Positions 6,016 through 56,262 of a stretch of 64,000 nucleotides of DNA are shown in pieces. The translations under genes and the position numbers were made by a program. Origin of the DNA: a virus (Duplodnaviria > Caudoviricetes). The notes under the pieces are model-generated. The model saw nothing but the letters and a program-made list of their open reading frames with translations, searched no databases and was not told the DNA's origin. Location: positions 32,001 through 96,000 of IMG/VR virus record IMGVR_UViG_3300037067_013225; one strand, given 5' to 3'. Positions within the stretch are counted from its first letter, which is position 1, and each line of letters begins with the position of its first letter.

Positions 6016-6432
6016 ATGCAGCGATTGCGGTATGACGGTTTCGAGGTTGAGTTCGTTTATGATGGCGATCAAAATCTCTTGATCGAATTTGTCGAAATGG
6101 GAGATCGAAGAGATCTCATTGTCGCTCTACGTTATTGGGGAGGCATCCCTCGTTGGACTGGTAAAGTCGGGCAAGTAGCCATACAGGGGAATCAGGCATT
6201 CGTTAAGTGTGATTTCGCACTTGCGCGGAGTTCCGATCCTCTAGGTCAAAGTAAGAACAAAGACAATCATGCATTGCATGAGTTGATTAGATTTGTTCAC
6301 GATGGAGTTTATACAAAGAAGTCTGGTACCATTGCCAAACCATCAGGCTCTATTCCATTTCGTATTACTTCTGGATATGATTTGGAAAAGAGTGGATTTA
6401 GGAATGAAGAATTACAATGGGTAGATTTTTAA
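6016..6432 (+). CDS. hypothetical protein with C-terminal VDF tag
   Basis: Ends EELQWVDF*. Confidence 0.75.
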   Translation: MQRLRYDGFEVEFVYDGDQNLLIEFVEMGDRRDLIVALRYWGGIPRWTGKVGQVAIQGNQAFVKCDFALARSSDPLGQSKNKDNHALHELIRFVHDGVYTKKSGTIAKPSGSIPFRITSGYDLEKSGFRNEELQWVDF

Positions 6433-6448
6433 ATTAAAGGAGTATTGC

Positions 6449-6931
6449 ATGTGTACAGATCCGTATGATTCGACAGATAAGTTGTTCAAACAACTTGTAA
6501 GAGAAAAACGTTGTACTGTGGGATTTTTTGAGCGGGAATATACCGTTGCAGTTGATCCGACACCTCTGCTTTCCCGTCAGGGCGTTTTTGCACGAAACAA
6601 TGATATTGCATTGGCACAAGTATATACGCTTGATACCGTGTGTGTGTTGCGTGTGCCTGGTGGATATATCGTTGGAACTACCGCCCAATCGCCAGAAGAT
6701 ACCGAAGATAGAGAGCTTGCCAAATTCAAGGCATTTCGTCGCGCTCTAGAGAATGCGGTTAAGTCCAAACCGATCCAGTATCAACAGATCGCCAAAACGA
6801 TCAAGGAATCCCTTGCCGAAAAAATCGGCCAAAAATATGGTACATCGTTCAAACATATCGGATTGAAAAACGAAACGTTTGATATCGATGTTGATGAATT
6901 CGTTAAAACGTGTAAAAATCTTGTAGTTTAA
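6449..6931 (+). CDS. hypothetical protein
   Basis: AGGAG SD, 160 aa. Confidence 0.7.
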   Translation: MCTDPYDSTDKLFKQLVREKRCTVGFFEREYTVAVDPTPLLSRQGVFARNNDIALAQVYTLDTVCVLRVPGGYIVGTTAQSPEDTEDRELAKFKAFRRALENAVKSKPIQYQQIAKTIKESLAEKIGQKYGTSFKHIGLKNETFDIDVDEFVKTCKNLVV

Positions 6932-6937
6932 ACGAGA

Positions 6938-7243
6938 GTGAAAAGTATGCCAACCAAATTTGAGACTGAACCAATATGCGCTTTCAGTTTTGCAGTCCCT
7001 CGCAACTGGCGTTACGATGTGAAGAAGGAATTTCATCAGTCTCTTGGTGATGCGTGTCCTCCAGGATTAATCCTGGAGGACACTGATGTTCCTGTAGGGA
7101 ATGCTTTTATCGTCATTACGTTAAAACGATTTCGCGAGAAAGCTGAAAAAGTTATTGCCAAACATATTGATGCATACAATCAGGTCAACACGGCGCGCAA
7201 AGCACAAGATGCTCGTGGGAGCGAAGGGCCACGAATTCTATGA
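6938..7243 (+). CDS. hypothetical protein
   Basis: 101-aa ORF in operon. Confidence 0.6.
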   Translation: MKSMPTKFETEPICAFSFAVPRNWRYDVKKEFHQSLGDACPPGLILEDTDVPVGNAFIVITLKRFREKAEKVIAKHIDAYNQVNTARKAQDARGSEGPRIL

Positions 7244-7875: not shown

Positions 7876-7884
7876 GAGTAATAA

Positions 7885-8709: not shown

Positions 8710-8719
8710 GGAGATATCC

Positions 8720-8872: not shown

Positions 8873-8931
8873 TAAGATGATGTCTGCGAAAATTAAACCG
8901 CCAGAATAATTAATTTGTTTCTTTCTGATTT

Positions 8932-13395: not shown

Positions 13396-14454
13396 GTGAC
13401 AGAACTAGATCCAAATATCTTGCACGAGTTTAAGGCATCACCGTTAGGGTTTGATGATTTTGATCGTCATATGCAATATGCGGCTGGTTTACACGATTAT
13501 TTATCCGATAATGGAGCTATTAGTGCCGATGGTACTCTAGATATCGGGAAGACTCAGGAATCTTTGCAGGATTTAGATCAGAAAGATTTTGCCAAATGGA
13601 AGAATAGAATGGAATCCGGTTATCTTCCAGTCATGGCGCATATTCAACAATTTGTTGGGAAACCTGCAATAGAGACTAATCCTGGATATTTGTCCAATTT
13701 GGGTTCTTTGATATCATCTGGTCGGGGAGATTTATCTCACGATTTCGCATACGAATTTTCCCCACAAGGTGATCTTAGATATCGAAGCCCCAAGCAAACG
13801 CTTCAAGCTATTACATCCGGCAATACCACATATTTATTGCCGGAAAATATCAACCTAGCAAAAAGAGCGCTTAAATATGCGCGTGATGGACGTAAATTAT
13901 TGCAACTTGCGGATAAGGTTGTCAAAATATCCAATATGAGACCAGGACGGGCGAGTACGCCTGTTGGAGTAATGATGGGCCAAAACGCAGCCGGAATGGC
14001 AGCACTAACGCATGCGCCGGGACAGATTAAATCCAGCATGGCGAAATCTGATGTCAAGACAAACCTATATCTGCTGAACGATCTTCTAAATATAGATAGG
14101 AATAGAGCGGTGGCGCTTGCCAAAAACATTTCGGGTTCCGTTCGCGATGTGACAGCTTTCACGGCACAAGACACCAAGGCTCTAAAAAAAGCTATTATTT
14201 TCACTTGGCATATTAAGAAGGGAACAGACTTTAATAAAGCATACATAGATATAAACAACATTCCAATAGATTACGATTTGTTTGAGAAGAAGCGTGGTCA
14301 GTATTCTCGATATAACGTTGAGCCGTCCATGACATCCATTGTGGAGGAGATTGTAAATCAACCGGCAGATTCAGAGTTTATTGACGTTCTGTTACTACGG
14401 CTAGCACTGGACAATTACGTTGAGGACAAACATGCATATCGTCATCCTGCGTAA
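13396..14454 (+). CDS. hypothetical (probable internal head) protein
   Basis: Leaderless after GGGTAAATT (13381); contains MAKS, LKKA, FNKA motifs. Confidence 0.6.
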   Translation: MTELDPNILHEFKASPLGFDDFDRHMQYAAGLHDYLSDNGAISADGTLDIGKTQESLQDLDQKDFAKWKNRMESGYLPVMAHIQQFVGKPAIETNPGYLSNLGSLISSGRGDLSHDFAYEFSPQGDLRYRSPKQTLQAITSGNTTYLLPENINLAKRALKYARDGRKLLQLADKVVKISNMRPGRASTPVGVMMGQNAAGMAALTHAPGQIKSSMAKSDVKTNLYLLNDLLNIDRNRAVALAKNISGSVRDVTAFTAQDTKALKKAIIFTWHIKKGTDFNKAYIDINNIPIDYDLFEKKRGQYSRYNVEPSMTSIVEEIVNQPADSEFIDVLLLRLALDNYVEDKHAYRHPA

Positions 14455-14800
14455 AGAACTATACTCGGATAATTATCAGTCTGTGGATGGTATATTTGAA
14501 GGCGCATTCACGATATATAAGCTGATGAGTATGTTTCCGAACGCATATTTTTTGATTATAAATGACGATATGGAATTTCACGATAGTCGGATTATTAATC
14601 GCAAGCGAATGAAAGAACTATTTAATATCGATGAACGCAATCAAATACGTTGCGAAAATTGTCACACAAAAAACGTTATATCTCGCAAACTATGTCGCCA
14701 GTGCGGATATGAAAATAAATATTGGGAGATATTGCAATATTATTCGGATGATTTCGTAAAAGCGGCTGAATTACGAGGACTAATCGATGAAATATGGTAA
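14420..14800 (+). CDS. hypothetical zinc-ribbon protein
   Basis: CENC...CRQC; start uncertain. Confidence 0.55.
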   Translation: MRTNMHIVILRKELYSDNYQSVDGIFEGAFTIYKLMSMFPNAYFLIINDDMEFHDSRIINRKRMKELFNIDERNQIRCENCHTKNVISRKLCRQCGYENKYWEILQYYSDDFVKAAELRGLIDEIW

Positions 14801-17800
14801 CGCGATAATTGCGAGAAGATTATTGTGTAAGGCGATAAAATATCCATATAGCGAAAAAGATGCCGAAAAAATCGGCAAAAAGATTGGAGCATCTGAGGAA
14901 GAAATAGCTCGTTTACGTCAAGGTATGAACGTAGAGCATGAACACGACCAAGATTCTGAAACTAATGTTGCTCATGGACGGCATAAGATTGTAGCTAAAA
15001 TTGCATTAGCTCATTTGCGCGAAATGCTGGATTATTATGATAAATTAAAAACTATTGAGAAGGGCAATTCGCAATTTCAAGCTTATGCATCAGCTTATAG
15101 TGATTTTAGCAATCTTGCAAACAATGACACGCTACGTAATCTAGATACTTTACAAGATCAATATCTTGAGGCAACAGGTATCGATCATAATTATGCGAAT
15201 CAAGTTTTAGATCAGATAAAAAAAACCGTAGTGCCATTAGCTAAACAATACAACCAAACATGGGATAAATATTCTCAGATTATTGCGGCACCACGTTTAA
15301 TGCAGTTCGGTCTAAATAGATTGGACGAGAATGATTTTGACAATCCCATGTTATTAGCACGGGGACATTTTAGAAATTACGGTAAAGCTTTGAACAATTT
15401 TAAGAATTTTCTCTCGGGTCAATTGACTCAACCACGAGATAATTTTGCCAAAGCCGACAGATATGAAACTCAGCCTGGAAAATCTCTCCTTGATGTGATG
15501 CATCGTGTACTCAAATTCAATTCAGAACATCCGCCCACACCACAGCCAATAGTCACACCCGAAGATAAAAATCGCCACGAACAAATCACTCATATTCACT
15601 CACTACGCGAAACACCCGAAACCGAATCGCCATTTATTGGTGGGGATACCTTTGATAAGGCTTTATCACCGCAACATCATCAGTCCATTCTATCTCAATT
15701 AGAGGGTAAAAATGAGGATGAATTACGAGCGGGTGGTATTTTGGGTGACAGGTTGGGAGAGGGGCTATATAGGCGTGTTTATTCATTAAAACAATATCCG
15801 GGTCTCGTTGTCAAAATACCGTTATCTGATAGGTCCATAGAAAACAATAAAACAGAATATCAGCATTATCAAAAATTTAGAGATTCGGGAGCCAAGAAAT
15901 ATGTAGCTCCCATATACGGCATCACATCTAATGGCATCTCTTTGGCTAAGCGGGTAGACCCACTACCAAAGGATGTAGCAAATCAGCTTGATCGTCTAGA
16001 TATTCTATCCAATCCCATGCATGAGGCTAGGCTGAAAAAGATCGTGGGTCTTGGTGTTGATGATGTGCATTCTGGTAATTTTGGAATAGATCGTGGAAAG
16101 CTAGTATCGTTGGATTATAACAAGGCTATTCCAGATCCTCTAGATACGAGCAAAGATGTGGAACTCGTCGATCAAAGTTTAGAACATTTAGATCCGGATT
16201 TTTCCGAGATGATATTGTCTTTGATTGATAGAGCGAGGGATTTTGGGTTAGAGCTTTATATTAGGGAGGGGTTTCGCACTCGTGCTCGTCAACAATATCT
16301 GAGTGATGTGGTTAATGCGCAGGGTGCTGGTGTCGCACCACCGATATATACACAAGAGGGAATGATTGATTTTGATGAACGCACTTTCCCTCATGGTGCG
16401 GGGTTTGCTGTAGATATTGGGATTAAGGGATTGGAGCAGCAGGAAGATGCGTATCATGCATTTTTGCATAAGTTGTGGGCCGCGATGTATCCCGGAAAGG
16501 TTAATCCAGATCCAATACCGGACGATTTCAACCATTACGAAGCATCTAAAGAATTTATCGATAAAAATTCGCGCGATCTAACAGAGTCCGATCATTATGG
16601 AGAATTTATGGATATCTTTTCCAAGGCACGTCGTGCCATTGCTGGCAAAAGTCGTGCTTGGGGGGATATTTTACATCATTATATTCGCGATATACATACG
16701 CCCGGATTAGATAACAGATCCGTTATTCCGGTTGATAAATATAAGTCTATTTTAGCGAATGCGATATCATATCATATTCGAAATCATCGCCCCGGCGCTC
16801 ACGAATATGAACAGCGCACGCCCGAAGAAACGAAAATTCGCACATCGCTATTTCATAATCTTATGGAAGGTAAGGGACTTGATGACAGATATTTATCCGA
16901 TTTAGATCCGGCGCATGATTCAAAGATACGCGCATTGCAGGGATTGGTTAACGAGACTAATTGGTCATCTAGAGATGATCTAGAAAAGCTAGAACGTAAC
17001 GTCACGCGACTCAATAACGTGCCGTCAGCGCCCGCTACAGCGTCGTCACCACCACCAGGCGCACTTCCTATAAGCGAATTCCTTAATAGAAACAAACCCG
17101 CACCCCAATGGACGCCCCAGGCTCTAAAACCACGTCCAGTAGTCGATCAAGCGTTACTAGATAGATTAACATCCAATACGCCGGGACAAGATTTTATAGA
17201 CGCAAACAAGCAAGCATGGAAGCAGAGTTTCGCCAAACCCGTTCAAGCTATGGCTCAGGGAGTTGAGGGATTGGGGCGAAAGATGGGAGTCATTAAAGCC
17301 ACATATGTGGATCAGATTAAAGAACGCACCGCACAAGATCCATACGAATCAGCCGGATTGAATCAGGGGCAAATAAGTGATTTGGTTCGCAGATTGTCCA
17401 ATGTATCGAATCCCGTACCGCGTAATATGCAACCACTTTTAGTACCTCAGTCTACGCCTGAACCGTCTCAAGATCCATATGAAGCTGCTGGATTAGAGAA
17501 GAAAAAGATATCGGATTTGGTACAGAGATTGTTGAATATTCGATACAAAGAGCCGGAAAATATTCTTCAGCCAGAAACGCAAGAACCCACATCAAGTAGC
17601 GATATTGTTTCGACATCCACAGATACAAACGATTTAATTTCGCAAGCCGAATCGGATTTTGCACCAAAGCCTCGCTTCATGTCCGAACGAAGTTACAATC
17701 AGTTATCTAATCGCAAAAATGTCCGCCCTCAGTTTGCCGAAGCTCTAGCACCGCAACGTCAGTCACGTATCATGGAGGGGATTAATGCCGCCAACACACA

Positions 17801-32341: not shown

Positions 32342-33173
32342 ATGCTGGCAATATCGCTTGCGCAAACAATATCTGGAATCCGATATCGCGGCTCTCGGAT
32401 TTAATGCGGATCAATTATCGCAAATGCGCGTTAAAGATTTCGTATTCGCAAACGAATCGCCAAGTAAAGAAATCACCGATTTTATTTTGAAATATGAATG
32501 GCTCGGATCGATGGCCCAACAGACATCGCATTGTTTTACGGCTAGATATCGTGGTATATTGGCGGGGGTAATAACTCTAGGCACACCGAATACTTTTAGT
32601 AAAATTCTCGGCCCGGAAACAAAAAAAATGGAGCGTCTGATATCGCGAGGTGCTTGTGCATCATGGACACCCAAAAATTTAGCCTCGGCATTAATAATGT
32701 GGTCATTGCGTTGGATGGTTAAAAATACACCTTATCGAGTATTTGTGGGATATTCTGACAGTGAGGCCGGTGAGCAGGGTACGATATATCAGGCTTGCTC
32801 ATTTTATTATTTGGGAGACGATTTCGGTACGGGATATTTATGCCTGTATAATGGTAAGTGGATTTCGCCAAGAAGCTTTACAACATTTGCATCGTTTAGA
32901 AAATACGCCAGAAAGTACAATCTGCCGTGGGAACCAGAATGGAAACGATGTCATCCTCAAGGTATTAATGTTATTCCTAAAGAATTAAAAGATCGTCTGA
33001 TGAAAATTGGGAATGAACTGAGAGATTCTTGCGAAAAGAAAAAAATCCCGCACAAAAGAAAATACGTATGCGTGTTGGGTGCGAATAAATCTGAGGCTCG
33101 TTCACTGGTGCAGGCTCTACTAAAATACACCCCTCGCGCCACTAAAAAATATCCCTTGACAAAAACACTCTGA
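32322..33173 (+). CDS. Mom-like GNAT adenine-modification enzyme
   Basis: FILKYEWLG, GVITLGTP, ISRGAC..PKNLAS, YSDSEAGEQGTIYQA.SFYYLG. Confidence 0.78.
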   Translation: MRYRMDECWQYRLRKQYLESDIAALGFNADQLSQMRVKDFVFANESPSKEITDFILKYEWLGSMAQQTSHCFTARYRGILAGVITLGTPNTFSKILGPETKKMERLISRGACASWTPKNLASALIMWSLRWMVKNTPYRVFVGYSDSEAGEQGTIYQACSFYYLGDDFGTGYLCLYNGKWISPRSFTTFASFRKYARKYNLPWEPEWKRCHPQGINVIPKELKDRLMKIGNELRDSCEKKKIPHKRKYVCVLGANKSEARSLVQALLKYTPRATKKYPLTKTL

Positions 33174-33184
33174 CGCGGTATACT
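33156..33184 (+). promoter_or_regulatory. sigma70-type promoter, leaderless start at 33190
   Basis: TTGACA-17-TATACT. Confidence 0.8.
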
Positions 33185-33189: not shown

Positions 33190-33546
33190 ATGTCTAAGTA
33201 TTATGACGAGTTTACGATAGAGTCGCTACGCACCATGTCTCAGGAAGTATGGGATATGTGTGTCCAGCCGTATACCGACTGGACACGGACAGAATGGTTG
33301 AGACTTGAGCCACGTACAGATTATATATTTTATAGAGGGGGTTTGGTGGGGAGTATAAATGCTGTGACCGATGGTTGGCGATTAGATATTTATGATGGTA
33401 GACTTTTGGAACACATTGGTGCTACAGATATGGCATATGGTTGCTCGTTAAATACCTTTTACATAAATTCGATCAAGCGTCTAAAAACATTTCTTGACAT
33501 ACAATATGAGAATCTAGATAAACAGTTTGTGATGATCGATTTCTAA
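33190..33546 (+). CDS. hypothetical protein with C-terminal IDF tag
   Basis: Ends KQFVMIDF*. Confidence 0.75.
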   Translation: MSKYYDEFTIESLRTMSQEVWDMCVQPYTDWTRTEWLRLEPRTDYIFYRGGLVGSINAVTDGWRLDIYDGRLLEHIGATDMAYGCSLNTFYINSIKRLKTFLDIQYENLDKQFVMIDF

Positions 33547-33914
33547 TGGTTAGAAATAACATAAAAATTGAGTTGCTTCAGGATTTACCAGGGAAGATTT
33601 TGCGGACGTTTTCTGCGTGGGATCATAATCACTGGATTGAATATAGTTGTGATAATTTCGAAACCAACGTCTGTATATTCGAAAACGATAGATTTTTAGG
33701 TTTGATTACCTGTCGCGATGCAATTTTCAAATCGGTTTCTGACACTCTTTGGGTTTTTGACGCTATTTGGTATGAAAAATGTGAGTTATATCTTTTGATT
33801 AGCGATGTTACAGTCATAGAGAATACGACTGTGTATAGTCGTGGTACATTTGACGAATTATTATCCTTTCTGGTCGGCACAGATATGTGTTTGATGACCG
33901 AAATCGATTTCTAA
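33546..33914 (+). CDS. hypothetical protein with C-terminal IDF tag
   Basis: Ends LMTEIDF*; TAATG coupling. Confidence 0.75.
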   Translation: MVRNNIKIELLQDLPGKILRTFSAWDHNHWIEYSCDNFETNVCIFENDRFLGLITCRDAIFKSVSDTLWVFDAIWYEKCELYLLISDVTVIENTTVYSRGTFDELLSFLVGTDMCLMTEIDF

Positions 33915-33915
33915 G

Positions 33916-34230
33916 ATGCATGGTACATATACTGAGCATTGCGGATATTTGGATCAGCCTCCGAATTCTATCACGAAGCAGGTTTTTGTTTATTTGCCGG
34001 AATATTTACATCAACGCACGAGGATGTATTCTGCCGGAGGGCGTATTGAATTTATATTAATGGGGGATTCGGGTCGTTGTAAATGGTATTTCACGGGGCG
34101 TTATGACTTTGATGTATTTGAACATGGTCTAAATTATGGAATACTTCGTGAACATCGTGCAAAATGGTTCGCGGCAATGATTCTGTGTGCATATGATGAT
34201 GAGAGAGAATATTGTATGGTGGATTTCTGA
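33916..34230 (+). CDS. hypothetical protein with C-terminal VDF tag
   Basis: Ends REYCMVDF*. Confidence 0.75.
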   Translation: MHGTYTEHCGYLDQPPNSITKQVFVYLPEYLHQRTRMYSAGGRIEFILMGDSGRCKWYFTGRYDFDVFEHGLNYGILREHRAKWFAAMILCAYDDEREYCMVDF

Positions 34231-34270
34231 TGTGCGTGATTAAGAGTGCAAATCACTTGAAGAGCAAAAT

Positions 34271-34849
34271 ATGTATGTGATTACAAACGAAAACATGAAC
34301 AATGATGGTTTGTGGGAAATCGGCATAAAACGTTCCGGTTTTGCTTACGCCAGCCCGGAGCTAGCCGTGCTTGTGCAACTCGCATACGAGAGATTCGAAC
34401 ATTTCAGGATTTTCGAAGCATTGGGAGAGATGAACCATCCTATACGTTCTAACGGTAAGTTTACACTTTTGCGAGAGACCTATGTGCCGGAATTCTCCAC
34501 AAATCAGCGCATTTGGTTTGCGATTCAATGCGCGCTAGCCGTGTGTGATGATCCTGTGTTCGTGTCGTGGGCGAATGCCTGGATTGATGGGACTGATCGA
34601 AGCGTTGAGGCTGCCAAAACTGTTCGTGAGAAGCTTTGGGCCGATGCTATTGCTGATGCTGCTGATGCTGCTGCTTATTATGCTGCTGCTAGTGCTGCTA
34701 GGGCTTTTGGGCCTGCTTTTTATGTCGCTTATGCCGATTATTATGCTGCCGCTCATGCTGCGCACGCCACTCCAAGCATAAATTTCACTGATATCGCCGC
34801 CACCGCTCTGAACTTTGATTTGAGAGAATTCCAAGAAATTGATTTCTGA
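34271..34849 (+). CDS. Ala-rich (Imm5-like) protein with C-terminal IDF tag; paralog of 55382..55984
   Basis: FAIQCALAV..WANAWIDG, poly-Ala tract, ends REFQEIDF*. Confidence 0.75.
   Translation: MYVITNENMNNDGLWEIGIKRSGFAYASPELAVLVQLAYERFEHFRIFEALGEMNHPIRSNGKFTLLRETYVPEFSTNQRIWFAIQCALAVCDDPVFVSWANAWIDGTDRSVEAAKTVREKLWADAIADAADAAAYYAAASAARAFGPAFYVAYADYYAAAHAAHATPSINFTDIAATALNFDLREFQEIDF
34330..34549 (+). repeat. inverted repeat, copy 1 (copy 2 at about 55671-55919)
   Basis: 57 bp identical (34330-34386 vs 55863-55919) plus a ~75-bp block with one mismatch. Confidence 0.9.
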
Positions 34850-36624: not shown

Positions 36625-37352
36625 GATATCTAATAATTTTATTGCTATTTTTAACATCGTGTCCGCATAAAACTAGTTCTTTTGATTGGGGAAGTCAGCC
36701 ATATCAGAATATTGTTCCGCCGCCCATCGGTAGATGGGCTGCAACTCCCACGATATCATACAATGGTGAACTTTTCTCATCGCAATCTATTAGGCCCGAT
36801 TGGGCCTTAAATAGCGCTACATCAACGTTTCAGGAAGAATTGATAAATATTTCTAAGTGGTGCGATGGGATCGGTTACAAGATTGGTTCCGGATCTGATA
36901 TAGATGTCTATTTTTATTATGAGCCATATACAAAGAAAACATCCTCTATAGGCGATGATTGTCTAGTCATAGTAGAGCCACCGGGGAAAGCTACAAGCAC
37001 GGCTTCTCCGCCCGCGCCCGGATCTAATTATTCCGGTGTAGCGATTGTAACATCCGATAATCGTACCATTAGTCATGTCGATGTGTGGTTGAATATCAAT
37101 AAATATCAGGTATTTTATGACGAATATAAAATCCGATATCCTAAAGCATCTGATAAAGAATTAAAAACGTGGGCTGTCAAAAAAGAAAATGCGATTTTTG
37201 CAAGGATTATCTGGCACGAGTTGGGTCATGCCCTGTTTGGACTGTCCGATGACAGTCAAGGCTCTACTAATGGAACTATGGTATACGCAACCATGACAAT
37301 ACCATATAATACGGAAGAAACCGCAGTTATCAAATGGATGTACGGATTATGA
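36621..37352 (+). CDS. lipoprotein zinc metalloprotease (zincin)
   Basis: Signal peptide MRYLIILLLFLTSC with lipobox; HELGHALFGLSD; downstream Met-turn-like TM. Confidence 0.75.
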   Translation: MRYLIILLLFLTSCPHKTSSFDWGSQPYQNIVPPPIGRWAATPTISYNGELFSSQSIRPDWALNSATSTFQEELINISKWCDGIGYKIGSGSDIDVYFYYEPYTKKTSSIGDDCLVIVEPPGKATSTASPPAPGSNYSGVAIVTSDNRTISHVDVWLNINKYQVFYDEYKIRYPKASDKELKTWAVKKENAIFARIIWHELGHALFGLSDDSQGSTNGTMVYATMTIPYNTEETAVIKWMYGL

Positions 37353-37693
37353 GATATAATCTCCACAACATACCCGGTAAAAGGTTTGGCCCAGAATATT
37401 TTCCCCATGGTCTTGCATCTTGTGGAGGTTCACGTATCTTTGACAAAATGGCTGGAGACAGAATTCCGTATTTAAGAGGTATGATCTGCATATATAGTGG
37501 TATCGATGATCGTTTAGTTTTTTTATTTTTACCAGATGATTATACCATAATTAGCGTGCAAAGCGATATAGTGTACGAGAACCTTCAAGAACATCTCAAT
37601 GGAGAGGATTTTAGACGATCTCAAGATGAGGTTTGTAATTTTATACTAGATCTTCTAGCCCAGACATATGAATTAACGGAGGTTGATTTCTAA
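37349..37693 (+). CDS. hypothetical protein with C-terminal VDF tag
   Basis: Ends YELTEVDF*; TAATG-coupled to the protease gene. Confidence 0.75.
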   Translation: MRYNLHNIPGKRFGPEYFPHGLASCGGSRIFDKMAGDRIPYLRGMICIYSGIDDRLVFLFLPDDYTIISVQSDIVYENLQEHLNGEDFRRSQDEVCNFILDLLAQTYELTEVDF

Positions 37694-38220
37694 TGACATG
37701 TATTGTTGCGATCAAAACTAAAGATGCCATATTTATGGGTGGTGATTCTGCTGGTGGCAATGCTTACGGAATCCAATCTAGATCCGATCCTAAAGTTTTT
37801 AGAAGTGGTGGATTTGTTATCGGATACACCACTAGTTATCGTATGGGGCAAATTCTACAGCATGGTTTTGAATTTGTTACACCTGAAGGCGATCCTGACG
37901 CGTATATGTTTTCATTGTGTAACGCTGTGGCTAGTAAATTAACTGATTTAAATTATGCAAAATTGGAAAATAATGTTATAGACGGTGGTACTTTCCTTAT
38001 TGGATGGAAAAACCACTTGTATGCAGTTTATGATAATTTTCAGTATGCTCGGTTTAGGGACAATTATGCCGCAATCGGTTCCGGGGAGGAATATGCACTG
38101 GGATCGTTGTTTTCAACTCAAAGTATAGACGATCCCATAAAACGAATCACCATTGCATTAGATGCAGCCACGAAGTTTTCGTCTCTTGTTGCAAAGCCAT
38201 ATATTTTTGAGCATACATAG
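37693..38220 (+). CDS. HslV/proteasome-beta-like Ntn threonine protease
   Basis: M-T-CIVA N-terminal Thr, GGDS, PKVF, AIGSG..YALG. Confidence 0.85.
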   Translation: MTCIVAIKTKDAIFMGGDSAGGNAYGIQSRSDPKVFRSGGFVIGYTTSYRMGQILQHGFEFVTPEGDPDAYMFSLCNAVASKLTDLNYAKLENNVIDGGTFLIGWKNHLYAVYDNFQYARFRDNYAAIGSGEEYALGSLFSTQSIDDPIKRITIALDAATKFSSLVAKPYIFEHT

Positions 38221-38913: not shown

Positions 38914-39004
38914 ATCTTCTCCGTTTATTGGCTGTTAATATCAGCTTACCCCTTGAATATACCCCGTTTTTGTGGTACAATATAGTGGCAACCAGACCGA
39001 GACC

Positions 39005-45879: not shown

Positions 45880-46993
45880 TCGTAATAAACAGCAGCAATT
45901 ATATGATGAGACATATTTGGAATTATATAATCAGGACGATGTTAGGAGATCTCAGGCATATATTGGAGAATTATCTCGCATAAAGAATTTTGTTCCATCG
46001 TCTGGTGCTGTATTGGATATAGGGTGTGGGACTGGTAGTTTTCTCGCGACAGATAAACATTCTATCAAAGTCTTCAAAAACTATACGTTATTTGGTATAG
46101 AGATATCTAAAATTGCGTCGGAATTGGCCGCAGAAAATGGTATATCTATTATAAACGAATGCGATATGGTTGACGATACCTATGACGTTATTATTATGCG
46201 TGGTGTCATTCAACACCTACCCAATCCATTAGACATGATATCTAAATGTTATAGATCATTAAAACCGGGTGGTAGGCTTATATTTTTAGCTACACCAAAC
46301 AGTAATTCGATTTATTATAAATTATGGGGAACGTTGCCTATGCTCAACCCCAAATATAATTTTTTAATCCCCAGCGATACAGAACTGCAAAATATTTTGG
46401 TTAATTTCGGATTCCGGGTTGATGATATAGTTTATCCATACGAAAAACCATATGCTCGACCAACAGATTATATTAAATTTGTTGCAAAATTATTGGGTGC
46501 GAATCTACAATTCGCTTTTCCTCATAACATGATGGAAATATATGCGACGAAGCCAACTCCTATAAAATATGATAAATATTCGGTTATAACATCATTGGGT
46601 GACTTAATAGACTCGATGGAGACAATTCACTTAAAGTTGGAGCATCATAAAGATCCGACAGTATTGGATCGATTAGAAGAACAACGTAAAGTCATAGCTA
46701 TGTCTATTAGGCTGATAGAAAATGGTTCGTGTGCTTTCCTCTCGTTTCCTAAATATAAGGTATATGATGCCGACATAGATATTCCATTTATGGGTTATGG
46801 GGATGCCGTGAATGAACTCAAAAAAACAGTTAGGGATTTATGGGATTTGCAAGAATTTGTCAATCTTAAAAAGTATACCTCAGCTACCAGGGAGGATATG
46901 TTGGCATATATTGCGGAACTAGATTCACTAAACAGAAAGCGAAATTACCTCATAGATAGAATCAACACCATATTTAAGGACGAACATCAATGA
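45872..46993 (+). CDS. class I SAM methyltransferase with helical C-terminal domain
   Basis: VLDIGCGTG, VIQHLPNP, LKPGGRLI..TPN. Confidence 0.85.
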   Translation: MFNRNKQQQLYDETYLELYNQDDVRRSQAYIGELSRIKNFVPSSGAVLDIGCGTGSFLATDKHSIKVFKNYTLFGIEISKIASELAAENGISIINECDMVDDTYDVIIMRGVIQHLPNPLDMISKCYRSLKPGGRLIFLATPNSNSIYYKLWGTLPMLNPKYNFLIPSDTELQNILVNFGFRVDDIVYPYEKPYARPTDYIKFVAKLLGANLQFAFPHNMMEIYATKPTPIKYDKYSVITSLGDLIDSMETIHLKLEHHKDPTVLDRLEEQRKVIAMSIRLIENGSCAFLSFPKYKVYDADIDIPFMGYGDAVNELKKTVRDLWDLQEFVNLKKYTSATREDMLAYIAELDSLNRKRNYLIDRINTIFKDEHQ

Positions 46994-48027
46994 ACGCTCT
47001 AGTAACGGGTATTTCGGGTCAAGATGGGAGTTATCTGGCAGAATTACTTTTAGACGAGGGGATTTCTGTCATCGGTATGTATCGTCGTTCCGCTGCACCA
47101 AATCTATGGCGACTCAAAAATTGCATCAATCATCCCAATCTGCAATTAATCGAGGGGGATCTAACTGACACGCAATCAGTCAACAACATTATTAAAAACG
47201 TTCACCCGACATATCTATTCAATTTGGCAGCTAACTCGTATGTTGCGTCATCATTTATCACACCAGAATCCGTCATAGATATCAATGGAACCGGTGTGGT
47301 TAGGCTACTAGAGGCTCTAAAAAACTATTCACCAGACACCATATTCTATCAAGCTAGTACATCAGAACTATATGGATCTAACTCATCCATATATTCACCA
47401 CAGGATGAACAAACGCCATTTATGCCAGCAAGCCCTTATGGGCTTGCTAAATTATTAGCATATCATGCCGTAAAACATTACAAGAATGCTTATGGGCTTA
47501 AAACATATCAAGGTATACTTTTCAATCACGAAGGTCCGCGCCGTGGCATTAATTTTGTTACAAGAAAAATTTCTCATGCTGTCGCGCAAATGGTATCTGG
47601 CAAGACGGAATGTATGTTACTTGGCAATCTCAACTCGTGTCGCGATTGGGGACATGCTAAGAGCTATGTTAAATGTATGTGGAAGTTGGTCAATCAGGAT
47701 AAAATAGATACCGTTGTAATCGGAACCGGTACCACACATACCGTGAGGGAATTCTGCGAATCAGCTTTTAAATCCGTAGGTATGCATATAAAATGGAGTG
47801 GAGACGGAATTAATGAAATCGGATATGATGATAAAGATATCGCCAGAGTAGCCATTGATCCGAAATATTTTAGACCGGAAGAAGTGGGATATTTGTTATC
47901 TAGGCCGGATTTAGCTAAATCAGTTTTGGGTTGGAATCCACATTCGATTGCTTTCGAAGACATGGTGAGCGAAATGGTGTTTACCGATCTCTACAGGATT
48001 GAACACGGAGTGTTGAATGAGTTTTAA
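46990..48027 (+). CDS. gmd: GDP-mannose 4,6-dehydratase
   Basis: TGISGQDGSYLAE, YQASTSELYG, SPYGLAK, LFNHEGPRRG.NFVTRK, RDWGHA, YFRPEEV. Confidence 0.95.
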   Translation: MNALVTGISGQDGSYLAELLLDEGISVIGMYRRSAAPNLWRLKNCINHPNLQLIEGDLTDTQSVNNIIKNVHPTYLFNLAANSYVASSFITPESVIDINGTGVVRLLEALKNYSPDTIFYQASTSELYGSNSSIYSPQDEQTPFMPASPYGLAKLLAYHAVKHYKNAYGLKTYQGILFNHEGPRRGINFVTRKISHAVAQMVSGKTECMLLGNLNSCRDWGHAKSYVKCMWKLVNQDKIDTVVIGTGTTHTVREFCESAFKSVGMHIKWSGDGINEIGYDDKDIARVAIDPKYFRPEEVGYLLSRPDLAKSVLGWNPHSIAFEDMVSEMVFTDLYRIEHGVLNEF

Positions 48028-48958
48028 GGTGGATGGGATCATTGTTTTGGCTGGCGGAGAAGGAATGCGATTACGCCCATTAACATTTGATATGCCGAAA
48101 ATATTAGTGCCATTTATGCACTACGATACATATTTGCGTTACTTATTAGCATATCTGGATATGTCATTGCCGGGTATTCCTGTGGCGATTTCTGCCGGAT
48201 ATAAAGCCGATCAAATACAGGGACTTTGTTTTCCAGGGAACCCTATGGTGGTTGTGGAGGACGTGCCATTGGGTACTGGTGGGGCAATTGTCGAAGCCAT
48301 TAAACAAACAGGATTTAAGTACCCTCTAATTATGAATGGTGATTGTTTGATGGACGATATCGATTTAGACTATTTCGTGGCAAGCGCTCAAGAAAGAGAT
48401 TGTTGGTGTACTATTTTGGGAGTTTGGAAACATAATGCATCCAGATATGGAAATATTCGGGTAGATGGCGATATCATTAGTGAATTCGTAGAGAAATCCC
48501 CCATACCATTATCGACAATGGATCATAGAGGTCTTATATCGTCGGGTATTTATATTATAGATGCTAAAAAATATCTCGATGTTACATCGCATTGTAATGG
48601 GCGTTTTTCTATAGAAAAAGAGGTATTCGAAAAACATCATGATATCGCTATTGGTTATGATAAATATATTGGATCTAGCGATCTAAATACTTATGTCGAT
48701 ATCGGAACCATAGAATCATATCGAGACAGTCAGGTGCGTTTGGCTGGTGGTAATCCGGTGATTCACAAGACGGCCATTATTGGTTCGACTACCTTAATCG
48801 ATAACAGTATTATACATGAAGGTGTACATATCGGAGATGGTTGCTTAATAGATAGATGTATTATTGCTAGAAATGCCGTTATTGAGGATAATTGTGAGTT
48901 AAAAAATGTATGTATCGCTGCCAAATCAATAATTAAACGAGGTACTAGACTATGTTGA
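48017..48958 (+). CDS. sugar-1-phosphate guanylyltransferase (ManC/HddC-like)
   Basis: LAGGEGMRLRP..PK, PLGTGG, NGD, FVEK, DIGT; C-terminal left-handed beta helix. Confidence 0.88.
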   Translation: MSFKVDGIIVLAGGEGMRLRPLTFDMPKILVPFMHYDTYLRYLLAYLDMSLPGIPVAISAGYKADQIQGLCFPGNPMVVVEDVPLGTGGAIVEAIKQTGFKYPLIMNGDCLMDDIDLDYFVASAQERDCWCTILGVWKHNASRYGNIRVDGDIISEFVEKSPIPLSTMDHRGLISSGIYIIDAKKYLDVTSHCNGRFSIEKEVFEKHHDIAIGYDKYIGSSDLNTYVDIGTIESYRDSQVRLAGGNPVIHKTAIIGSTTLIDNSIIHEGVHIGDGCLIDRCIIARNAVIEDNCELKNVCIAAKSIIKRGTRLC

Positions 48959-50214
48959 TGTTAGGTACAGCCGGTGCTCGATGGGATTCTGATATAAATG
49001 ATAATGAAATAGATTTTCTCATACTAAGATTTTATCGATATATTTGTGAACAAAGAAACAATTATAAATACATTGCTGATAAAATTTATGTTGGTTTTGA
49101 TGCTCGACCGCAAAGTGCCGTTTTAGCTAGAAGGATAAAGGCATTAATAGATATTGCGCCAAACGACGACAGGATACATTTGGTTAATGGTGTTCCGATT
49201 ACAACGCCCATGTTGTGTCGTATCTGCCAAGAACATAGGGCTTATGGTATGATGTTTACTGCTTCGCACAATCCCTCCAACTATGTTGGTGTTAAATTTA
49301 TTACTCCGGACGGGACTTTATTTGAGAGCGGCGATGTTTCACGTATCAATGGATTGCATGTAGGATTGGATGTGGAATATCATCCGGTAATGGAGTTCTA
49401 TCGACTTTTCGATCTGGTTAAGTTTAAAAATAAAGAATACTCATTCAGTACATTGGGCGGGGCTGCAAGGGGATATATAAGGGATATTTTTCAGGGTGGA
49501 ATTGAGGAAGATAATACACCGGCATTGGGTAATTCTTTAGAGCCAAGGGAGAACAATGTTGTTTTGCCGAGACAGAATGGAATAACGTTCGCATTGGATG
49601 GTGATGGTGATCGATTGTTGGTATTCATTGATGGTCAGGCGCTCACACCCAGTGAAACTTTCATGTTATTTGTCAAGGCATCGATGAAATATCGCGCTTT
49701 GTCTCATGCTATAGCGGCATACAATATGTCTAACACAATAGAGCAATATTGTACAGAAAATTATATATCATTTGAATGGAGTAAAATAGGATTCCAGCAT
49801 ATAACCCCCAAATATAAAGCTGTATCTGGTTTTGTTGCTGCTGGTGAGGAATCCGGTGGATTAGCTTTGCATCCCGTTTTCAGTGATCGGGATGGTATAG
49901 CAGCGGCGATAATCCTGATGGAATATAATGAGAATTATGGTCTGCGACATGAATTGAGCTATATTCGCAACAGATTCGGACGTATGCGATATAATAGATA
50001 TGATTTACGCAATCAGACTATATCCGACATTACCAAGAAAATTCCGGAACTAAATTCATTGATGCAGAATATTGATGGAGAAAAATATCTGTTTGAGTCT
50101 GGTTGGATGATGCTTAGAGAATCTGGAACGGAGCCGCTAACTCGCATATATTGCGAAACATATTACGATGATAATTTTGATCTAAAACAATTTATCGATG
50201 GCAGAATATCTTGA
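48952..50214 (+). CDS. phosphomannomutase/phosphoglucomutase
   Basis: TASHNP, DGDGDR, GEESG, RESGTEP. Confidence 0.92.
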   Translation: MLMLGTAGARWDSDINDNEIDFLILRFYRYICEQRNNYKYIADKIYVGFDARPQSAVLARRIKALIDIAPNDDRIHLVNGVPITTPMLCRICQEHRAYGMMFTASHNPSNYVGVKFITPDGTLFESGDVSRINGLHVGLDVEYHPVMEFYRLFDLVKFKNKEYSFSTLGGAARGYIRDIFQGGIEEDNTPALGNSLEPRENNVVLPRQNGITFALDGDGDRLLVFIDGQALTPSETFMLFVKASMKYRALSHAIAAYNMSNTIEQYCTENYISFEWSKIGFQHITPKYKAVSGFVAAGEESGGLALHPVFSDRDGIAAAIILMEYNENYGLRHELSYIRNRFGRMRYNRYDLRNQTISDITKKIPELNSLMQNIDGEKYLFESGWMMLRESGTEPLTRIYCETYYDDNFDLKQFIDGRIS

Positions 50215-50945
50215 TATCTATAGTAACGCCCATACTTGGTAGGGCGGAATTTATACCTATAATTCGTAAGATTGTCGCATCGCAGAAATATGATAGTTTT
50301 GAATGGATTATTGCCGAAGAGAGAGAAAGTTTCAACGCGCATCAGACCAATATACCAGAAGCGAATTATATAATTGTAGACGGTGGAATGAATATCGGTG
50401 ATAAAAGAAATCTCCTAGTAGAACGAGCAAGTGGAGATATCATTGTAAACTTTGACTTAGATGATTATTATTCACCATCATATCTATCTGCCGCAGCACA
50501 ATTAATCTGCAATTATGCGGCTGTGAATCACGATCCGCTATATCTGTATTCATTGCGGAATAGGACTGTACAAAGAGCCATACGCAGGCCGTATTGGGGT
50601 TCTGGAGCCGTCTATACACGCGATATCTGGGCCAAACACACATATCCTGCCGCAACGGTACGTCAGGGCGAAGACACTGTTTTCTTTCGTAGGATCGCTG
50701 AATTGTACGGTCTTAATCGTGTAGGGGGACTTTTGGCAACCTCACAATTATCGGCGCTGATGTTAGCGATACGTCACGGTGCTAATACTACGGTAGATAA
50801 ACGCCGTGGAAGCGTGATACCGGACAATAGTGCTGAGTTTCTAATGGGGCGGGTTCAAGACAGGGATATTTTGGATTTTTATATGGTTAAAGGAGGTTTT
50901 TCTCGATCAGTGCCTTCAACCGCACGAAGTCGTCGGGTGAGATAA
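50211..50945 (+). CDS. family 2 glycosyltransferase
   Basis: ISIVTP, IGDKRN, ASGDIIVNFDLDDYY, GED. Confidence 0.88.
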   Translation: MISIVTPILGRAEFIPIIRKIVASQKYDSFEWIIAEERESFNAHQTNIPEANYIIVDGGMNIGDKRNLLVERASGDIIVNFDLDDYYSPSYLSAAAQLICNYAAVNHDPLYLYSLRNRTVQRAIRRPYWGSGAVYTRDIWAKHTYPAATVRQGEDTVFFRRIAELYGLNRVGGLLATSQLSALMLAIRHGANTTVDKRRGSVIPDNSAEFLMGRVQDRDILDFYMVKGGFSRSVPSTARSRRVR

Positions 50946-52202: not shown

Positions 52203-52205
52203 ATA

Positions 52206-53744: not shown

Positions 53745-53751
53745 GAGACAT

Positions 53752-54141
53752 ATGGTAGAGCAACGGCAATGCCGTAAATGTAATACGTTTCGTCCAGTGA
53801 CCGATTTTTATGGAAATGCTCCGATTTGCAAATATTGCAACAGGAATAAAGCCAAAGATCGCCGTGTACAATCCAGAACCACAAATCTTAAACGGGTGCT
53901 GGAATATTTGTTAGCTCATCCATGCGTTGATTGTGGCGAAAAAGATCCCGTTGTTTTAGAATTCGATCATATTCGCGGTGAAAAACGATTTACTATCGGG
54001 AGCCATTTATGGTTTCCGTGGAATAAGATTAAATCCGAAATAGATAAATGTGATGTTAGATGTTCCAACTGTCATAAGCGTCGTCACGCTAGAGAAAATT
54101 GCACATCTATGTTCAAATTAAGCAACGGATATAAAGACTAG
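53752..54141 (+). CDS. HNH endonuclease
   Basis: PCVDCGEKDPVVLEFDH..KCDVRCSNCHKRRH. Confidence 0.85.
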   Translation: MVEQRQCRKCNTFRPVTDFYGNAPICKYCNRNKAKDRRVQSRTTNLKRVLEYLLAHPCVDCGEKDPVVLEFDHIRGEKRFTIGSHLWFPWNKIKSEIDKCDVRCSNCHKRRHARENCTSMFKLSNGYKD

Positions 54142-55079
54142 ATATCTATTTCATATTTGGCGAAAGTTTGTTCGTTTGGATTTGCGTCGGGTCTCATTTT
54201 ATTAAATCGTGGATGTCTTATGGTCCCAGATTTAAACATCTCTTGTCCCGATATTTCACACACTTCGCCGATATATTTTCGTGTATTTAGATCTTTGTAA
54301 AATGTATGACGGTATTCGTCCGTTAATCCGCCACAACTACAACAATGACATAAATTTCCATTGCGATCAAAAAGACCAAGTTCTAACGTCGCGATGCCAT
54401 TACCTAGGAATTTTTTAGATGTACTTGCGGTGTAATCCATTATAACGAAATCCCATGTTTCTACGGCTTTCATTTTTGCCCATGATAAGTGGTGGTATAA
54501 ACCGCATTGAGCTTTTACGATAATACCCTCTGCACCATCTTGTCTGGCAATTTCGAAGGCCATTTGCGAATTATCGGCTCTTATTGTTGGGCATAGTTTG
54601 ACAAATGGATCATCTATGGCTAGCGATTCTAGAAGAAATCTTCTTTCCGAATATGGATGTTTTCTTAAATCTATGATATCAAGATTTCTATACTGTATGA
54701 TATCGAAAATATAATACTTGAGCGGAGCCGTTTGCTGTTGTAGTTCGATGGCTCGTTCTGGAGAGCTTCCAATGATCGAAGTTACCATATTGCTTCCGCC
54801 AAAATCAGACATCAATTCTCCGTCAAAAACGATATCTTTCCCCAAAGATTTCATAAAATTATTTAATTGTGGGCAATGTTGAATTTTATCCAGCATTTTA
54901 TCGTTATAGACAGATCGCCTACGTCCAGTTAGCCGAATATTATTATTGATTTTGGACAATATTTGCCTAGCGCCGTCTAGCTTCACTTCATATGAGCATA
55001 CACCCATTTTCTCCACTCTCTCAACTTTTCCTCCAACTGGGATCGGAGTGAAATCTAGTGGGTCTATCCATTCTGTCAT
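54138..55079 (-). CDS. ATP-dependent DNA ligase
   Basis: EVKLDG, FDGEL, IFDI, EGIIVK, RHPRF..RPD; ends KYEIDI*. Confidence 0.92.
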   Translation of the reverse strand: MTEWIDPLDFTPIPVGGKVERVEKMGVCSYEVKLDGARQILSKINNNIRLTGRRRSVYNDKMLDKIQHCPQLNNFMKSLGKDIVFDGELMSDFGGSNMVTSIIGSSPERAIELQQQTAPLKYYIFDIIQYRNLDIIDLRKHPYSERRFLLESLAIDDPFVKLCPTIRADNSQMAFEIARQDGAEGIIVKAQCGLYHHLSWAKMKAVETWDFVIMDYTASTSKKFLGNGIATLELGLFDRNGNLCHCCSCGGLTDEYRHTFYKDLNTRKYIGEVCEISGQEMFKSGTIRHPRFNKMRPDANPNEQTFAKYEIDI

Positions 55080-55382
55080 TTAAAAATCCACTTCCTTGAA
55101 ATCTTTGTAAGCGGAACAAAACCAATCCAAAGCCTCTACAAAAGAACCACATTCAATTACAGGTGTACAGTTATTCATTTCATCCCGATGATATCTATAT
55201 ATGGAACATTTTGGATTGCACTTTTTATCATAAAGTATATATTTATCAAACAAGATATATCCAAGATATTGTTCGCCCATAAATATGTTTGATTCGTGAT
55301 CTCTACCGTCAGCGCGATATTGTGTGCGAAAGGATCTGTAACGCGGTTCTTCATACGATATCATTTCGTAATCTGTATACAT
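55080..55382 (-). CDS. hypothetical protein with C-terminal VDF tag
   Basis: Ends KDFKEVDF*. Confidence 0.75.
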   Translation of the reverse strand: MYTDYEMISYEEPRYRSFRTQYRADGRDHESNIFMGEQYLGYILFDKYILYDKKCNPKCSIYRYHRDEMNNCTPVIECGSFVEALDWFCSAYKDFKEVDF

Positions 55383-55984
55383 TAGAAATCGATCTCCTGG
55401 AATTCTTTTAAATCAAAGTTTAGGGTAGCAATGGCGATATCAGTGAAGTTTATGCTCGGATTAACTTCCGCTGCATAATAAGCAGCATCAGCAGCAAGAA
55501 TAGTAGCGTTAGCATAAGCGGCACGAACAGCAGCATCAGCAGCCCAAACAACAGAATCATTAGTAGCACGGGCGGCAGTCCGAAGCTTGCTTGAGAGATC
55601 TCTTGCGGTTTCGAAGCTTCGATCCGTTCCATTGATCCAGTTCTCCGCCCACGACACAAATATAGGTTCGTCACACACGGCTAGCGCGCATTGAATCGCA
55701 AACCAAATGCGCTGATTTGTAGAGAATTCCGGCACATAGGTCTCTCTTAAGAGTGTGAACTCACCGCTAGAGTGTAGAAAATCATTTCCTTTGCCAGATG
55801 CTTCGAAAATCTTAAAATGTTTGCCAGATGCTTCGAAAATCTTAAAATGGTCGAACGTATCATATGCGAGTTGCACAAGCACGGCTAGCTCCGGGCTGGC
55901 GTAAGCAAAACCGGAACGTGGTTTCCCGATTTCCCACAAACCATCATTGTGCATATTTTCGTCTGTGATCACGTACATGTTCAT
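55382..55984 (-). CDS. Ala-rich (Imm5-like) protein with IDF tag; paralog of 34271..34849
   Basis: Ends KEFQEIDF*; contains an in-frame 30-bp duplication. Confidence 0.75.
   Translation of the reverse strand: MNMYVITDENMHNDGLWEIGKPRSGFAYASPELAVLVQLAYDTFDHFKIFEASGKHFKIFEASGKGNDFLHSSGEFTLLRETYVPEFSTNQRIWFAIQCALAVCDEPIFVSWAENWINGTDRSFETARDLSSKLRTAARATNDSVVWAADAAVRAAYANATILAADAAYYAAEVNPSINFTDIAIATLNFDLKEFQEIDF
55790..55849. repeat. perfect 30-bp tandem duplication
   Basis: TTTGCCAGATGCTTCGAAAATCTTAAAATG twice (HFKIFEASGK twice). Confidence 0.95.
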
Positions 55985-56262
55985 CAGAAATCAATTTCCG
56001 TTAATTCGTATTCTTTACATTTTATTACCGGTATGCCCCATAATAGATGAGGTATCACTGACATTTTTTGGATTATCTCACATTGTTTTGGTTCCGCGTT
56101 TATTACGATTTGGGCGTTATTGTTCTGATTTTTTATAGAAAGAATTTGTGAACATATATTTGCGAATATTTCATTTGCGGTCATGCAAAGAGGATCAACA
56201 TACACCGTGTTTATACCGTCTGATACACCATCATCCAGCCTCGGCTCTAAGAAATTTTCCAT
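55984..56262 (-). CDS. hypothetical protein with C-terminal IDF tag
   Basis: Ends YELTEIDF*; start reassigned to MENFL, 7 nt after the -10. Confidence 0.72.
   Translation of the reverse strand: MENFLEPRLDDGVSDGINTVYVDPLCMTANEIFANICSQILSIKNQNNNAQIVINAEPKQCEIIQKMSVIPHLLWGIPVIKCKEYELTEIDF

What the first reader, a model, noticed from the sequence alone, without database searches (positions are those of the whole stretch)
6016..56262. Nine small proteins share a C-terminal hydrophobic-x-E-[IV]-D-F tag: possible adaptor or docking system
Seen: the last six residues are LQWVDF (6016-6432), FVMIDF (33190-33546), MTEIDF (33546-33914), YCMVDF (33916-34230), FQEIDF (34271-34849), LTEVDF (37349-37693), FKEVDF (55080-55382), FQEIDF (55382-55984) and LTEIDF (55984-56262). 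The ligase ends in the near-match YEIDI. Apart from one paralog pair the bodies look unrelated. Codons vary synonymously (GAA/GAG, ATC/ATT/GTG/GTT/GTA, TTC/TTT, TAA/TGA), pointing to selection on the peptide. All nine lie in operons with TTGACA-type promoters; no structural gene carries the tag. Inference: a free C-terminal motif plugs many different modules into one hub protein. Known analogies are C-terminal activator tails docking on HslV or the proteasome, ClpX IGF loops on ClpP, and the SSB DIPF tail. I do not recognise this tag as described.
Basis: partly seen in the sequence, partly recalled or inferred. Interest (0 to 1): 0.92.

Follow-up and report, generated by a model that had tools for sequence, protein, structure and literature searches.

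The report
Shared tail tag on phage proteins
Forty-eight mostly small, unrelated accessory proteins of this uncultured 203-kb phage, including a homologue of an anti-defence protein, end in the same six-residue tail, which changes in step in related phages and looks like an address label read by one shared partner that is not yet identified.

Summary
Confirmed and larger than reported. All nine tails are real. Genome-wide, 48 genes (46 of 211 small genes, 36 sequence families) end in hydrophobic-x-[EM]-[IV]-D-F-stop, against 0.14 expected; none lies in the structural blocks. The tail is an add-on: outside homologues and two paralogues stop 7-8 residues earlier. Two related phages carry a shifted version, [DE]-[ILV]-[DE]-[ILVF] (15 genes in a complete 221-kb genome, 4 in a contig), and one orthologue pair switches with its genome. 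Selection is mainly on the peptide, but the tag DNA also serves as a translational-coupling and shuffling junction. One tagged protein is a Tad3 (anti-Thoeris) homologue. The proposed HslV-like hub is absent from the tagged relative. My best candidate is the MoxR ATPase / HExxH-vWA (intact MIDAS) module outside the window, shared by both tagged genomes. However, a 333-kb phage has that module and no tag, and no binding is shown. This scan has noted other shared tails, often beside MoxR/vWA, in other phages (unchecked AI notes). I found no paper describing a genome-wide tag of this kind.

The parts
6016..6432 (+). 138-aa orphan protein ending QWVDF; starts 6 nt after a -10 box (probably leaderless)
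33190..33546 (+). 118-aa orphan protein with tag (VMIDF); first gene of a tagged array, stop overlaps the next ATG
33546..33914 (+). 122-aa orphan protein with tag (TEIDF)
33916..34230 (+). 104-aa orphan protein with tag (CMVDF)
34271..34849 (+). 192-aa member of an 11-paralogue family (9 tagged, 2 untagged); the tag is a 7-8 residue extension absent from outside homologues
37349..37693 (+). 114-aa orphan protein with tag (TEVDF); stop overlaps the ATG of the HslV-like gene
55080..55382 (-). 100-aa orphan protein with tag (KEVDF), directly upstream of the ligase
55382..55984 (-). 200-aa tagged paralogue of 34271-34849
55984..56262 (-). 92-aa orphan protein with tag (TEIDF); starts 7 nt after a -10 box
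54138..55079 (-). ATP-dependent DNA ligase ending in the near-match YEIDI; doubtful member, since the orthologue in G001 ends YNIDK and lacks that genome's tag
37693..38220 (+). HslV-like peptidase (phrog_1040, E 4e-20); considered as hub and disfavoured because the tagged relative G001 has no match to it
5981..6009 (+). sigma-70-type promoter consensus upstream of 6016
   Evidence: consensus match only
33156..33184 (+). sigma-70-type promoter consensus upstream of the tagged array 33190-34849
   Evidence: consensus match only
56270..56298 (-). sigma-70-type promoter consensus upstream of the tagged array 56262-55080
   Evidence: consensus match only

Best explanation
The tail is a free C-terminal docking peptide (hydrophobic at -6, -3 and -1, an invariant acid at -2, free carboxylate) that many small, soluble, non-structural accessory proteins have gained, so that one shared partner handles them as a class (about 70% for this step). 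The most likely partner is the phage's own MoxR AAA+ ATPase / 224-aa protein / HExxH-peptidase-vWA module (genome 159209-163036, outside the window; about half of that 70%). The acid or terminal carboxylate would complete the vWA MIDAS metal site, or the tip would dock on the MoxR ring as the NorD C-terminus does on NorQ. The ATPase would then fold, remodel, or strip the tagged protein and whatever host target it holds. Shown: the tail, its enrichment, its add-on nature, its in-step change in relatives, and the module with intact motifs in both tagged genomes. Inferred: binding, the identity of the partner, and what happens to the client. New genes probably gain the tag partly by recombination at the tag-stop-start junction.
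For: 48 tagged genes in 36 families, none with a hydrophobic stretch, against 24 of 160 untagged small genes. The tag is an extension beyond the ancestral end of a family. G001 has 14-15 genes ending [DE][ILV][DE][ILVF] against 0.25 expected, P 3e-20, and none in IDF; the L016 phage has 4 of 39. An orthologue pair (32% identity, E 5e-10) ends VEIDF in one genome and VDLEI in the other; a second, weak syntenic pair (E 0.002) does likewise. The acid at -2 is kept in all 67 tags of three phages. MoxR (Pfam AAA_3, AAA_5, bpMoxR), the 224-aa gene and the HExxH-vWA gene are conserved in G000 and G001 with DxSxS-T-D intact; the vWA fold was confirmed by model and Foldseek; in G000 the module is followed directly by two tagged genes. 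Precedents: a MIDAS binds an acidic residue of the client and CbbQO needs a C-terminal motif of Rubisco (PMC5437159); the last two residues of NorD are needed for NorQ binding (PMC13036017); a MIDAS holds the C-terminal carboxylate of C3b (PMC12847986).
Against: A complete 333-kb phage (G003) has the same three-gene module, plus ClpP and DnaE, and no shared tail in a blind scan (best log10 P -6.9, Lys-rich ends; G000 -96, G001 -12; pseudo-termini -5), so the module does not imply a tag. About 100 other genes are also shared between G000 and G001, so co-occurrence in two genomes singles out nothing. In G001 only one tagged gene lies within 10 kb of the module. The 16 kb around the capsid gene of the closer relative L014 has no tag in 22 ORFs, and two small genes behind the vWA gene in L033 have none. 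The published proposal for a like-built jumbo-phage pair is virion assembly (PMC7824862). The host is unknown, so host readers could not be examined.
Confidence: 0.36

Rival explanations
1. The tag docks on a host protein: the beta clamp (the phage has DnaE but no clamp gene), an SSB-tail-type pocket, or a PDZ-type or other chaperone or protease site. It would then localise the accessory proteins or make them compete for that site.
For: No PF00712 match in G000 although it encodes DnaE. The I-x-F end resembles clamp-binding and class II PDZ motifs (own knowledge). Tag drift between phages could follow different hosts.
Against: The Gln that opens bacterial clamp motifs is not at the right place (position -6 is L/F/Y/W/M). 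The core replication enzymes are untagged: DnaE, primase, RecA, SbcCD. The host is unknown, so this was not testable.
Confidence: 0.17
2. The tag is an IGF-loop mimic or degron for the phage's ClpP-like protease (genome 187811-188431), so that tagged binders such as Tad3 deliver host defence proteins for degradation, or are themselves turned over.
For: A ClpP-like gene with Ser-His-Asp is present in G000 and twice in G001. I-D-F resembles I-G-F. A tagged Tad3 homologue exists.
Against: The two pocket tyrosines are I and E in the phage protein (alignment; pocket residues from own knowledge). G003 has a ClpP-like gene and no tag. Acidic C-termini usually protect from C-terminal proteases (own knowledge).
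Confidence: 0.12
3. The conserved thing is the DNA or RNA junction (Shine-Dalgarno-like GGAG, overlapping stop and start, micro-homology for cassette shuffling); the peptide likeness is a by-product of copying gene ends.
For: The stop overlaps the next ATG by one base in 22 of 48 tagged genes against 25 of 214 untagged. The Glu codon is GAG in 19 of 26 overlapped but 2 of 10 free tags (Fisher P 0.007). ATA is used for Ile in 3 of 42 against 31-40% background. Ten pairs from different families share at least 20 of 30 bases downstream of the stop.
Against: 19 of 48 tags are not coupled. Position -6 uses five hydrophobic residues with unrelated codons, E/M and I/V exchange, and Phe and Asp codons match background (P 0.23 and 0.13). 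The pattern sits only in frame at gene ends (48 of 53). Relatives keep the chemistry with different DNA.
Confidence: 0.1
4. The tag has no single partner: it is a general stabilising or solubilising acidic-aromatic end, or a terminal beta-strand for self-association among tagged proteins, possibly via the small BRCT-like tagged protein.
For: Tagged bodies are acidic (38 of 48 with pI under 6). Tad3 homologues have HVDF or IVEF internally at the aligned place, so in that family the motif may be a native strand. The only clear tagged orthologue pair is the BRCT-like gene.
Against: D-F is invariant in 48 of 48 and switches genome-wide in relatives, which is tighter than a general stability effect needs. 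The BRCT label was not supported by Pfam PF00533 or PHROGs.
Confidence: 0.12
5. The HslV-like peptidase next to a tagged gene (window 37693-38220) is the hub, activated by the tails as HslU tails activate HslV.
For: It is translationally coupled to the tagged gene 37349-37693 and matches phrog_1040.
Against: No blastp or tblastn match in the complete tagged genome G001.
Confidence: 0.03

Closest known systems
CbbQ-CbbO (MoxR AAA+ / vWA) Rubisco activase (Tsai et al. 2015, as reviewed in PMC5437159)
   Same: A MoxR/vWA pair with an intact MIDAS that needs an acidic client residue and a shared C-terminal motif of the client
   Different: One client family; here 36 unrelated families share the tail, the vWA protein is fused to an HExxH peptidase-like domain, and the link to the tag is only inferred
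NorQ-NorD complex (PMC13036017)
   Same: The extreme hydrophobic C-terminus of a partner docks on a MoxR ring; losing two residues abolishes co-purification
   Different: The docking tail belongs to the vWA protein itself; the phage vWA protein does not carry the tag (ends QWDEC)
MoxR / metallopeptidase-vWA pair of group 2.2 jumbo phages (Iyer et al. 2021, PMC7824862)
   Same: Same domain architecture in a large phage
   Different: Proposed there for virion assembly; the passages I read mention no tagged accessory proteins; here an extra 224-aa gene sits between the two, and tagged genes avoid the structural blocks
T4 gp45 clamp-binding C-termini (gp43, gp33, gp55), T7 acidic tails ending in Phe, and the SSB tail (own knowledge)
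   Same: Short acidic-hydrophobic extreme C-termini of unrelated proteins read by one pocket
   Different: One to three core proteins there; here about a fifth of the small genes, almost none of them core replication or transcription proteins, and no phage clamp found
Zincin peptidase plus FxSxx-COOH small proteins of vWA-MoxR ternary systems (Kaur et al. 2020, PMC7159879)
   Same: Variable proteins with a conserved C-terminal peptide near MoxR, vWA and a zincin
   Different: Those are bacterial peptide precursors beside radical-based or peptide-processing genes in one locus; here the tag is on 48-474-aa proteins scattered through a phage genome

Membership tests
One protein family with a conserved end (artefact reading) | Full-length homology among the tagged proteins | tested here: not met
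   36 phmmer families among 48 after removing the last 12 residues
MoxR/vWA client-recognition systems (CbbQO, NorQD type) | MoxR-clade AAA+ gene beside a vWA gene | tested here: met
   Pfam AAA_3, AAA_5, bpMoxR; vWA fold by model and Foldseek, E 9e-5; same order in G001, L033 and G003
MoxR/vWA client-recognition systems (CbbQO, NorQD type) | Intact MIDAS (DxSxS, T, D) | tested here: met
   DVSGS, T452 and D479 invariant or nearly so in 80 homologues
MoxR/vWA client-recognition systems (CbbQO, NorQD type) | Client C-terminus or acid binds the machine and stimulates the ATPase | not testable with these tools
   Needs binding and ATPase assays
MoxR/vWA client-recognition systems (CbbQO, NorQD type) | Tag and machine co-occur across genomes | tested here: inconclusive
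   Both complete tagged genomes have it; complete G003 has the machine without a tag; only three whole genomes examined
ClpX/ClpA IGF loop or ADEP-type activators of ClpP | [LIVM]-G-[FL] motif and a ClpP with the tyrosine-lined pocket | tested here: not met
   The middle residue is D or E, never G; pocket tyrosine positions are I and E in the phage ClpP
Bacterial beta-clamp binding motif | Gln five or six residues before the final hydrophobic residue (QL[SD]LF or QLxLxF) | tested here: not met
   Position -6 is L/F/Y/W/M in all tags; Q at -5 in 15 of 49 only, and not followed by L
HslU-type C-terminal activators of HslV | HslV-like peptidase present wherever the tail is | tested here: not met
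   No match in complete tagged genome G001
Integron-like or other DNA cassette sites | Fixed DNA sequence or structure independent of reading frame | tested here: not met
   Synonymous variation and strict in-frame terminal position; some junction reuse is seen
Tad3 Thoeris inhibitors (for the tagged gene at genome 187115-187513) | Match to PF25185 above cut-off | tested here: met
   95.9 bits against cut-off 27, residues 1-107; ThsB binding itself not tested

The most novel reading that the evidence does not exclude
The phage runs a modular adaptor platform: dozens of fast-changing binder proteins, anti-defence proteins such as Tad3 among them, plug through one C-terminal tag into a phage MoxR-vWA-peptidase machine that remodels or cuts the host proteins they have captured. 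The tag-coding DNA doubles as a recombination and translational-coupling junction that lets new binders be added.
Probability: 0.13. Interest if true: 0.92.

Novelty: new variant of a known kind. Interest (0 to 1): 0.62.

Why it matters
Most small phage genes have no family and no function. A tail shared by about a fifth of them, which switches as a block between related phages, implies a common handling step and gives a simple handle: a six-residue peptide that can be fused to a reporter and used to fish out the partner. If the partner is the MoxR/vWA-peptidase module, it would give this poorly understood phage chaperone pair a client code and revise the proposal that it serves virion assembly. 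The tagged Tad3 homologue suggests the tag may mark a phage's counter-defence repertoire, which would help find new anti-defence proteins. The principle (short C-terminal motifs read by one pocket) is known; the scale and the add-on spread across unrelated families are what I did not find described.

Tried and rejected
Pfam and PHROGs on the nine window proteins: nothing above cut-off; on 66 tagged proteins only Tad3. DNA pattern scan for the tag in viral contigs: no match; in genome contigs: 120+ single hits consistent with chance, not pursued. Phage beta clamp, Hsp20 and Pfam BRCT: not found in G000 or G001. The 224-aa gene: model pLDDT 66, Foldseek no E under 0.001, VIA best Z 6.0 to generic beta-sandwiches; no fold assigned. 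No cultured phage in the collection matches the MoxR or vWA proteins. The first 50 kb of Atu_ph07 show no shared tail, but I did not verify that this phage has the module. Contigs for the closest module homologues P0034 and P0185 were not on record. Three literature searches for such a tag returned nothing relevant; the library lacks most subscription journals. Host not identified: best DnaE matches are about 30%.
Full report
Observation. The window is bases 32001-96000 of a 202,677-bp virus record, G000, 91% complete. It is a tailed phage with portal, capsid, DnaE, sigma-70 and RecA-like genes. All nine ORFs end as stated. Across the genome 48 genes end in [IV]-D-F; 46 of 288 genes of 60 aa or more end in DF, and the next commonest ending occurs 7 times. 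Against the internal frequency 0.14 would be expected (P 1e-101). The consensus is [LFYWM]-x-[EM]-[IV]-D-F-stop, often preceded by an acid. The median tagged protein is 115 aa, none has a membrane-like stretch, 46 of 211 small genes carry it, and none of 71 genes in the two structural blocks does. Each tagged operon in the window has a consensus TTGACA promoter.

It is not one family. With the last 12 residues removed the 48 proteins fall into 36 families. The largest has nine tagged and two untagged paralogues, including window genes 34271-34849 and 55382-55984. Its homologues from other genomes lack the tail, and the alignment shows the tag as a 7-8 residue extension beyond the ancestral end. 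Only one of 66 tagged proteins scanned has a solid family: genome 187115-187513 is a Tad3 homologue (PF25185, E 2e-27). Tad3 binds and inhibits the Thoeris protein ThsB (PMC13402655). A 474-aa radical-SAM protein is also tagged. A caveat: Tad3 homologues have HVDF or IVEF internally at the aligned position, so there the tag may have arisen by truncation at a similar strand.

Peptide or DNA. Phe and Asp codons match background, five different hydrophobic residues occupy -6, and the DNA pattern occurs 48 of 53 times in frame at gene ends, with 5 expected by chance elsewhere. This points to selection on the peptide. There is also a DNA layer. The stop overlaps the next ATG in 22 of 48 tagged against 25 of 214 untagged genes. 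The Glu codon is GAG, giving GGAG, in 19 of 26 overlapped but 2 of 10 free tags (P 0.007). ATA is avoided. Ten pairs of unrelated tagged genes share at least 20 of 30 bases downstream of the stop, mostly because they precede paralogous genes. I read this as the junction being reused for coupling and shuffling, which could be how new genes gain the tag (inference).

Relatives. Capsid homologues gave a small clade. G001, a complete 220,861-bp genome with 62% capsid identity, has no IDF ends but 14-15 genes ending [DE]-[ILV]-[DE]-[ILVF], 0.25 expected; a blind motif scan finds this as its top pattern. A contig at 54% capsid identity has four tandem small genes with the same kind of end behind its capsid gene. 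One orthologue pair (E 5e-10) carries the genome-specific tag in each phage, and a second weak syntenic pair behind the primase does too. An acid at -2 and hydrophobic residues at -1 and -3 are common to all three phages. The 16 kb held for a closer relative (L014, 76%) show no tag; that is a small sample. The ligase orthologue in G001 lacks the tag, so the ligase ending is probably not part of the system.

Candidate readers. The HslV-like gene in the window has no match in G001. No phage beta clamp or Hsp20 was found. A ClpP-like gene with a catalytic triad is shared, but the pocket tyrosines are replaced. Also shared is a three-gene module at genome 159209-163036: MoxR ATPase, a 224-aa protein of unassigned fold, and an HExxH protein with a C-terminal vWA domain and intact MIDAS. 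In G000 it runs directly into two tagged genes and dnaE. Published MoxR/vWA machines read C-termini and acids: CbbQO (PMC5437159) and NorQD (PMC13036017); a MIDAS can hold a terminal carboxylate (PMC12847986). A like-built pair in group 2.2 jumbo phages was proposed to serve virion assembly (PMC7824862). My own test cuts against a simple link: G003, a complete 333-kb phage with the same three-gene module, has no shared tail. The module is therefore not sufficient, and since about 100 genes are shared by the two tagged genomes, co-occurrence does not single it out.

Earlier notes of this scan (unchecked AI notes) describe different shared tails in several other phages and an archaeal island, often naming MoxR/vWA as candidate. 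I used them as leads to papers and to the G003 test, not as support. Other first-stage notes on this genome list the same tags.

Verdict. The feature is real and genome-wide. A peptide read by one shared partner is likely (about 70%); that the partner is the MoxR/vWA-peptidase module is the best single guess (about 36% overall). It works like known C-terminal docking motifs but fails the defining features of clamp motifs, IGF loops and HslU tails as tested here. I class it as a new variant of a known kind, interest 0.62, because the pattern is strong, apparently undescribed in the papers searched and easy to test, while the mechanism is unproven.

Noticed in passing
whole genome; 51 copies in window 1-64000: The heptamer GGCTCTA/TAGAGCC occurs 186 times against 18.5 expected from a third-order model; G001 has only 10 copies but over-represents TAAAGAG and TGAAGAG instead.
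   Followed up: partly
window 6016, 33190, 56262: Start codons lie only 5-7 nt after the -10 box, suggesting leaderless mRNAs; this may be a clue to the host.
   Followed up: no
L008:1115-1513 (genome 187115-187513, minus): Tad3 (type I Thoeris inhibitor) homologue carrying the tag.
   Followed up: partly
L008:7460-8884 (genome 193460-194884): Radical-SAM protein with an N-terminal motif like the one another scan note describes (FATNSSS) and the C-terminal tag as well.
   Followed up: no
window 38972-50945: An 11-gene block of apparent glycosyltransferase and nucleotide-sugar genes, conserved at 33-70% identity in G001; possible DNA or virion glycosylation together with the Mom-like gene at 32322-33173.
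   Followed up: no
L006:9209-13036 (genome 159209-163036, minus): MoxR, 224-aa unknown and HExxH-vWA genes form a fixed trio also in G001, G002, G003 and, in part, L033; the middle protein has no assigned fold.
   Followed up: yes
L008:1811-2431; L022:2757-3398 and 14426-15052: ClpP-like protease in the replication region next to recA, duplicated in G001; one G001 copy has D in place of the catalytic His.
   Followed up: partly
window 577-2109: Large RNA-binding protein (phrog_850, TROVE/Ro-like by my reading), also present in G003.
   Followed up: no
G001 about 77-127 kb (L024-L026): Dozens of 50-75 aa basic, hydrophobic small genes in tandem that do not carry the tag.
   Followed up: no
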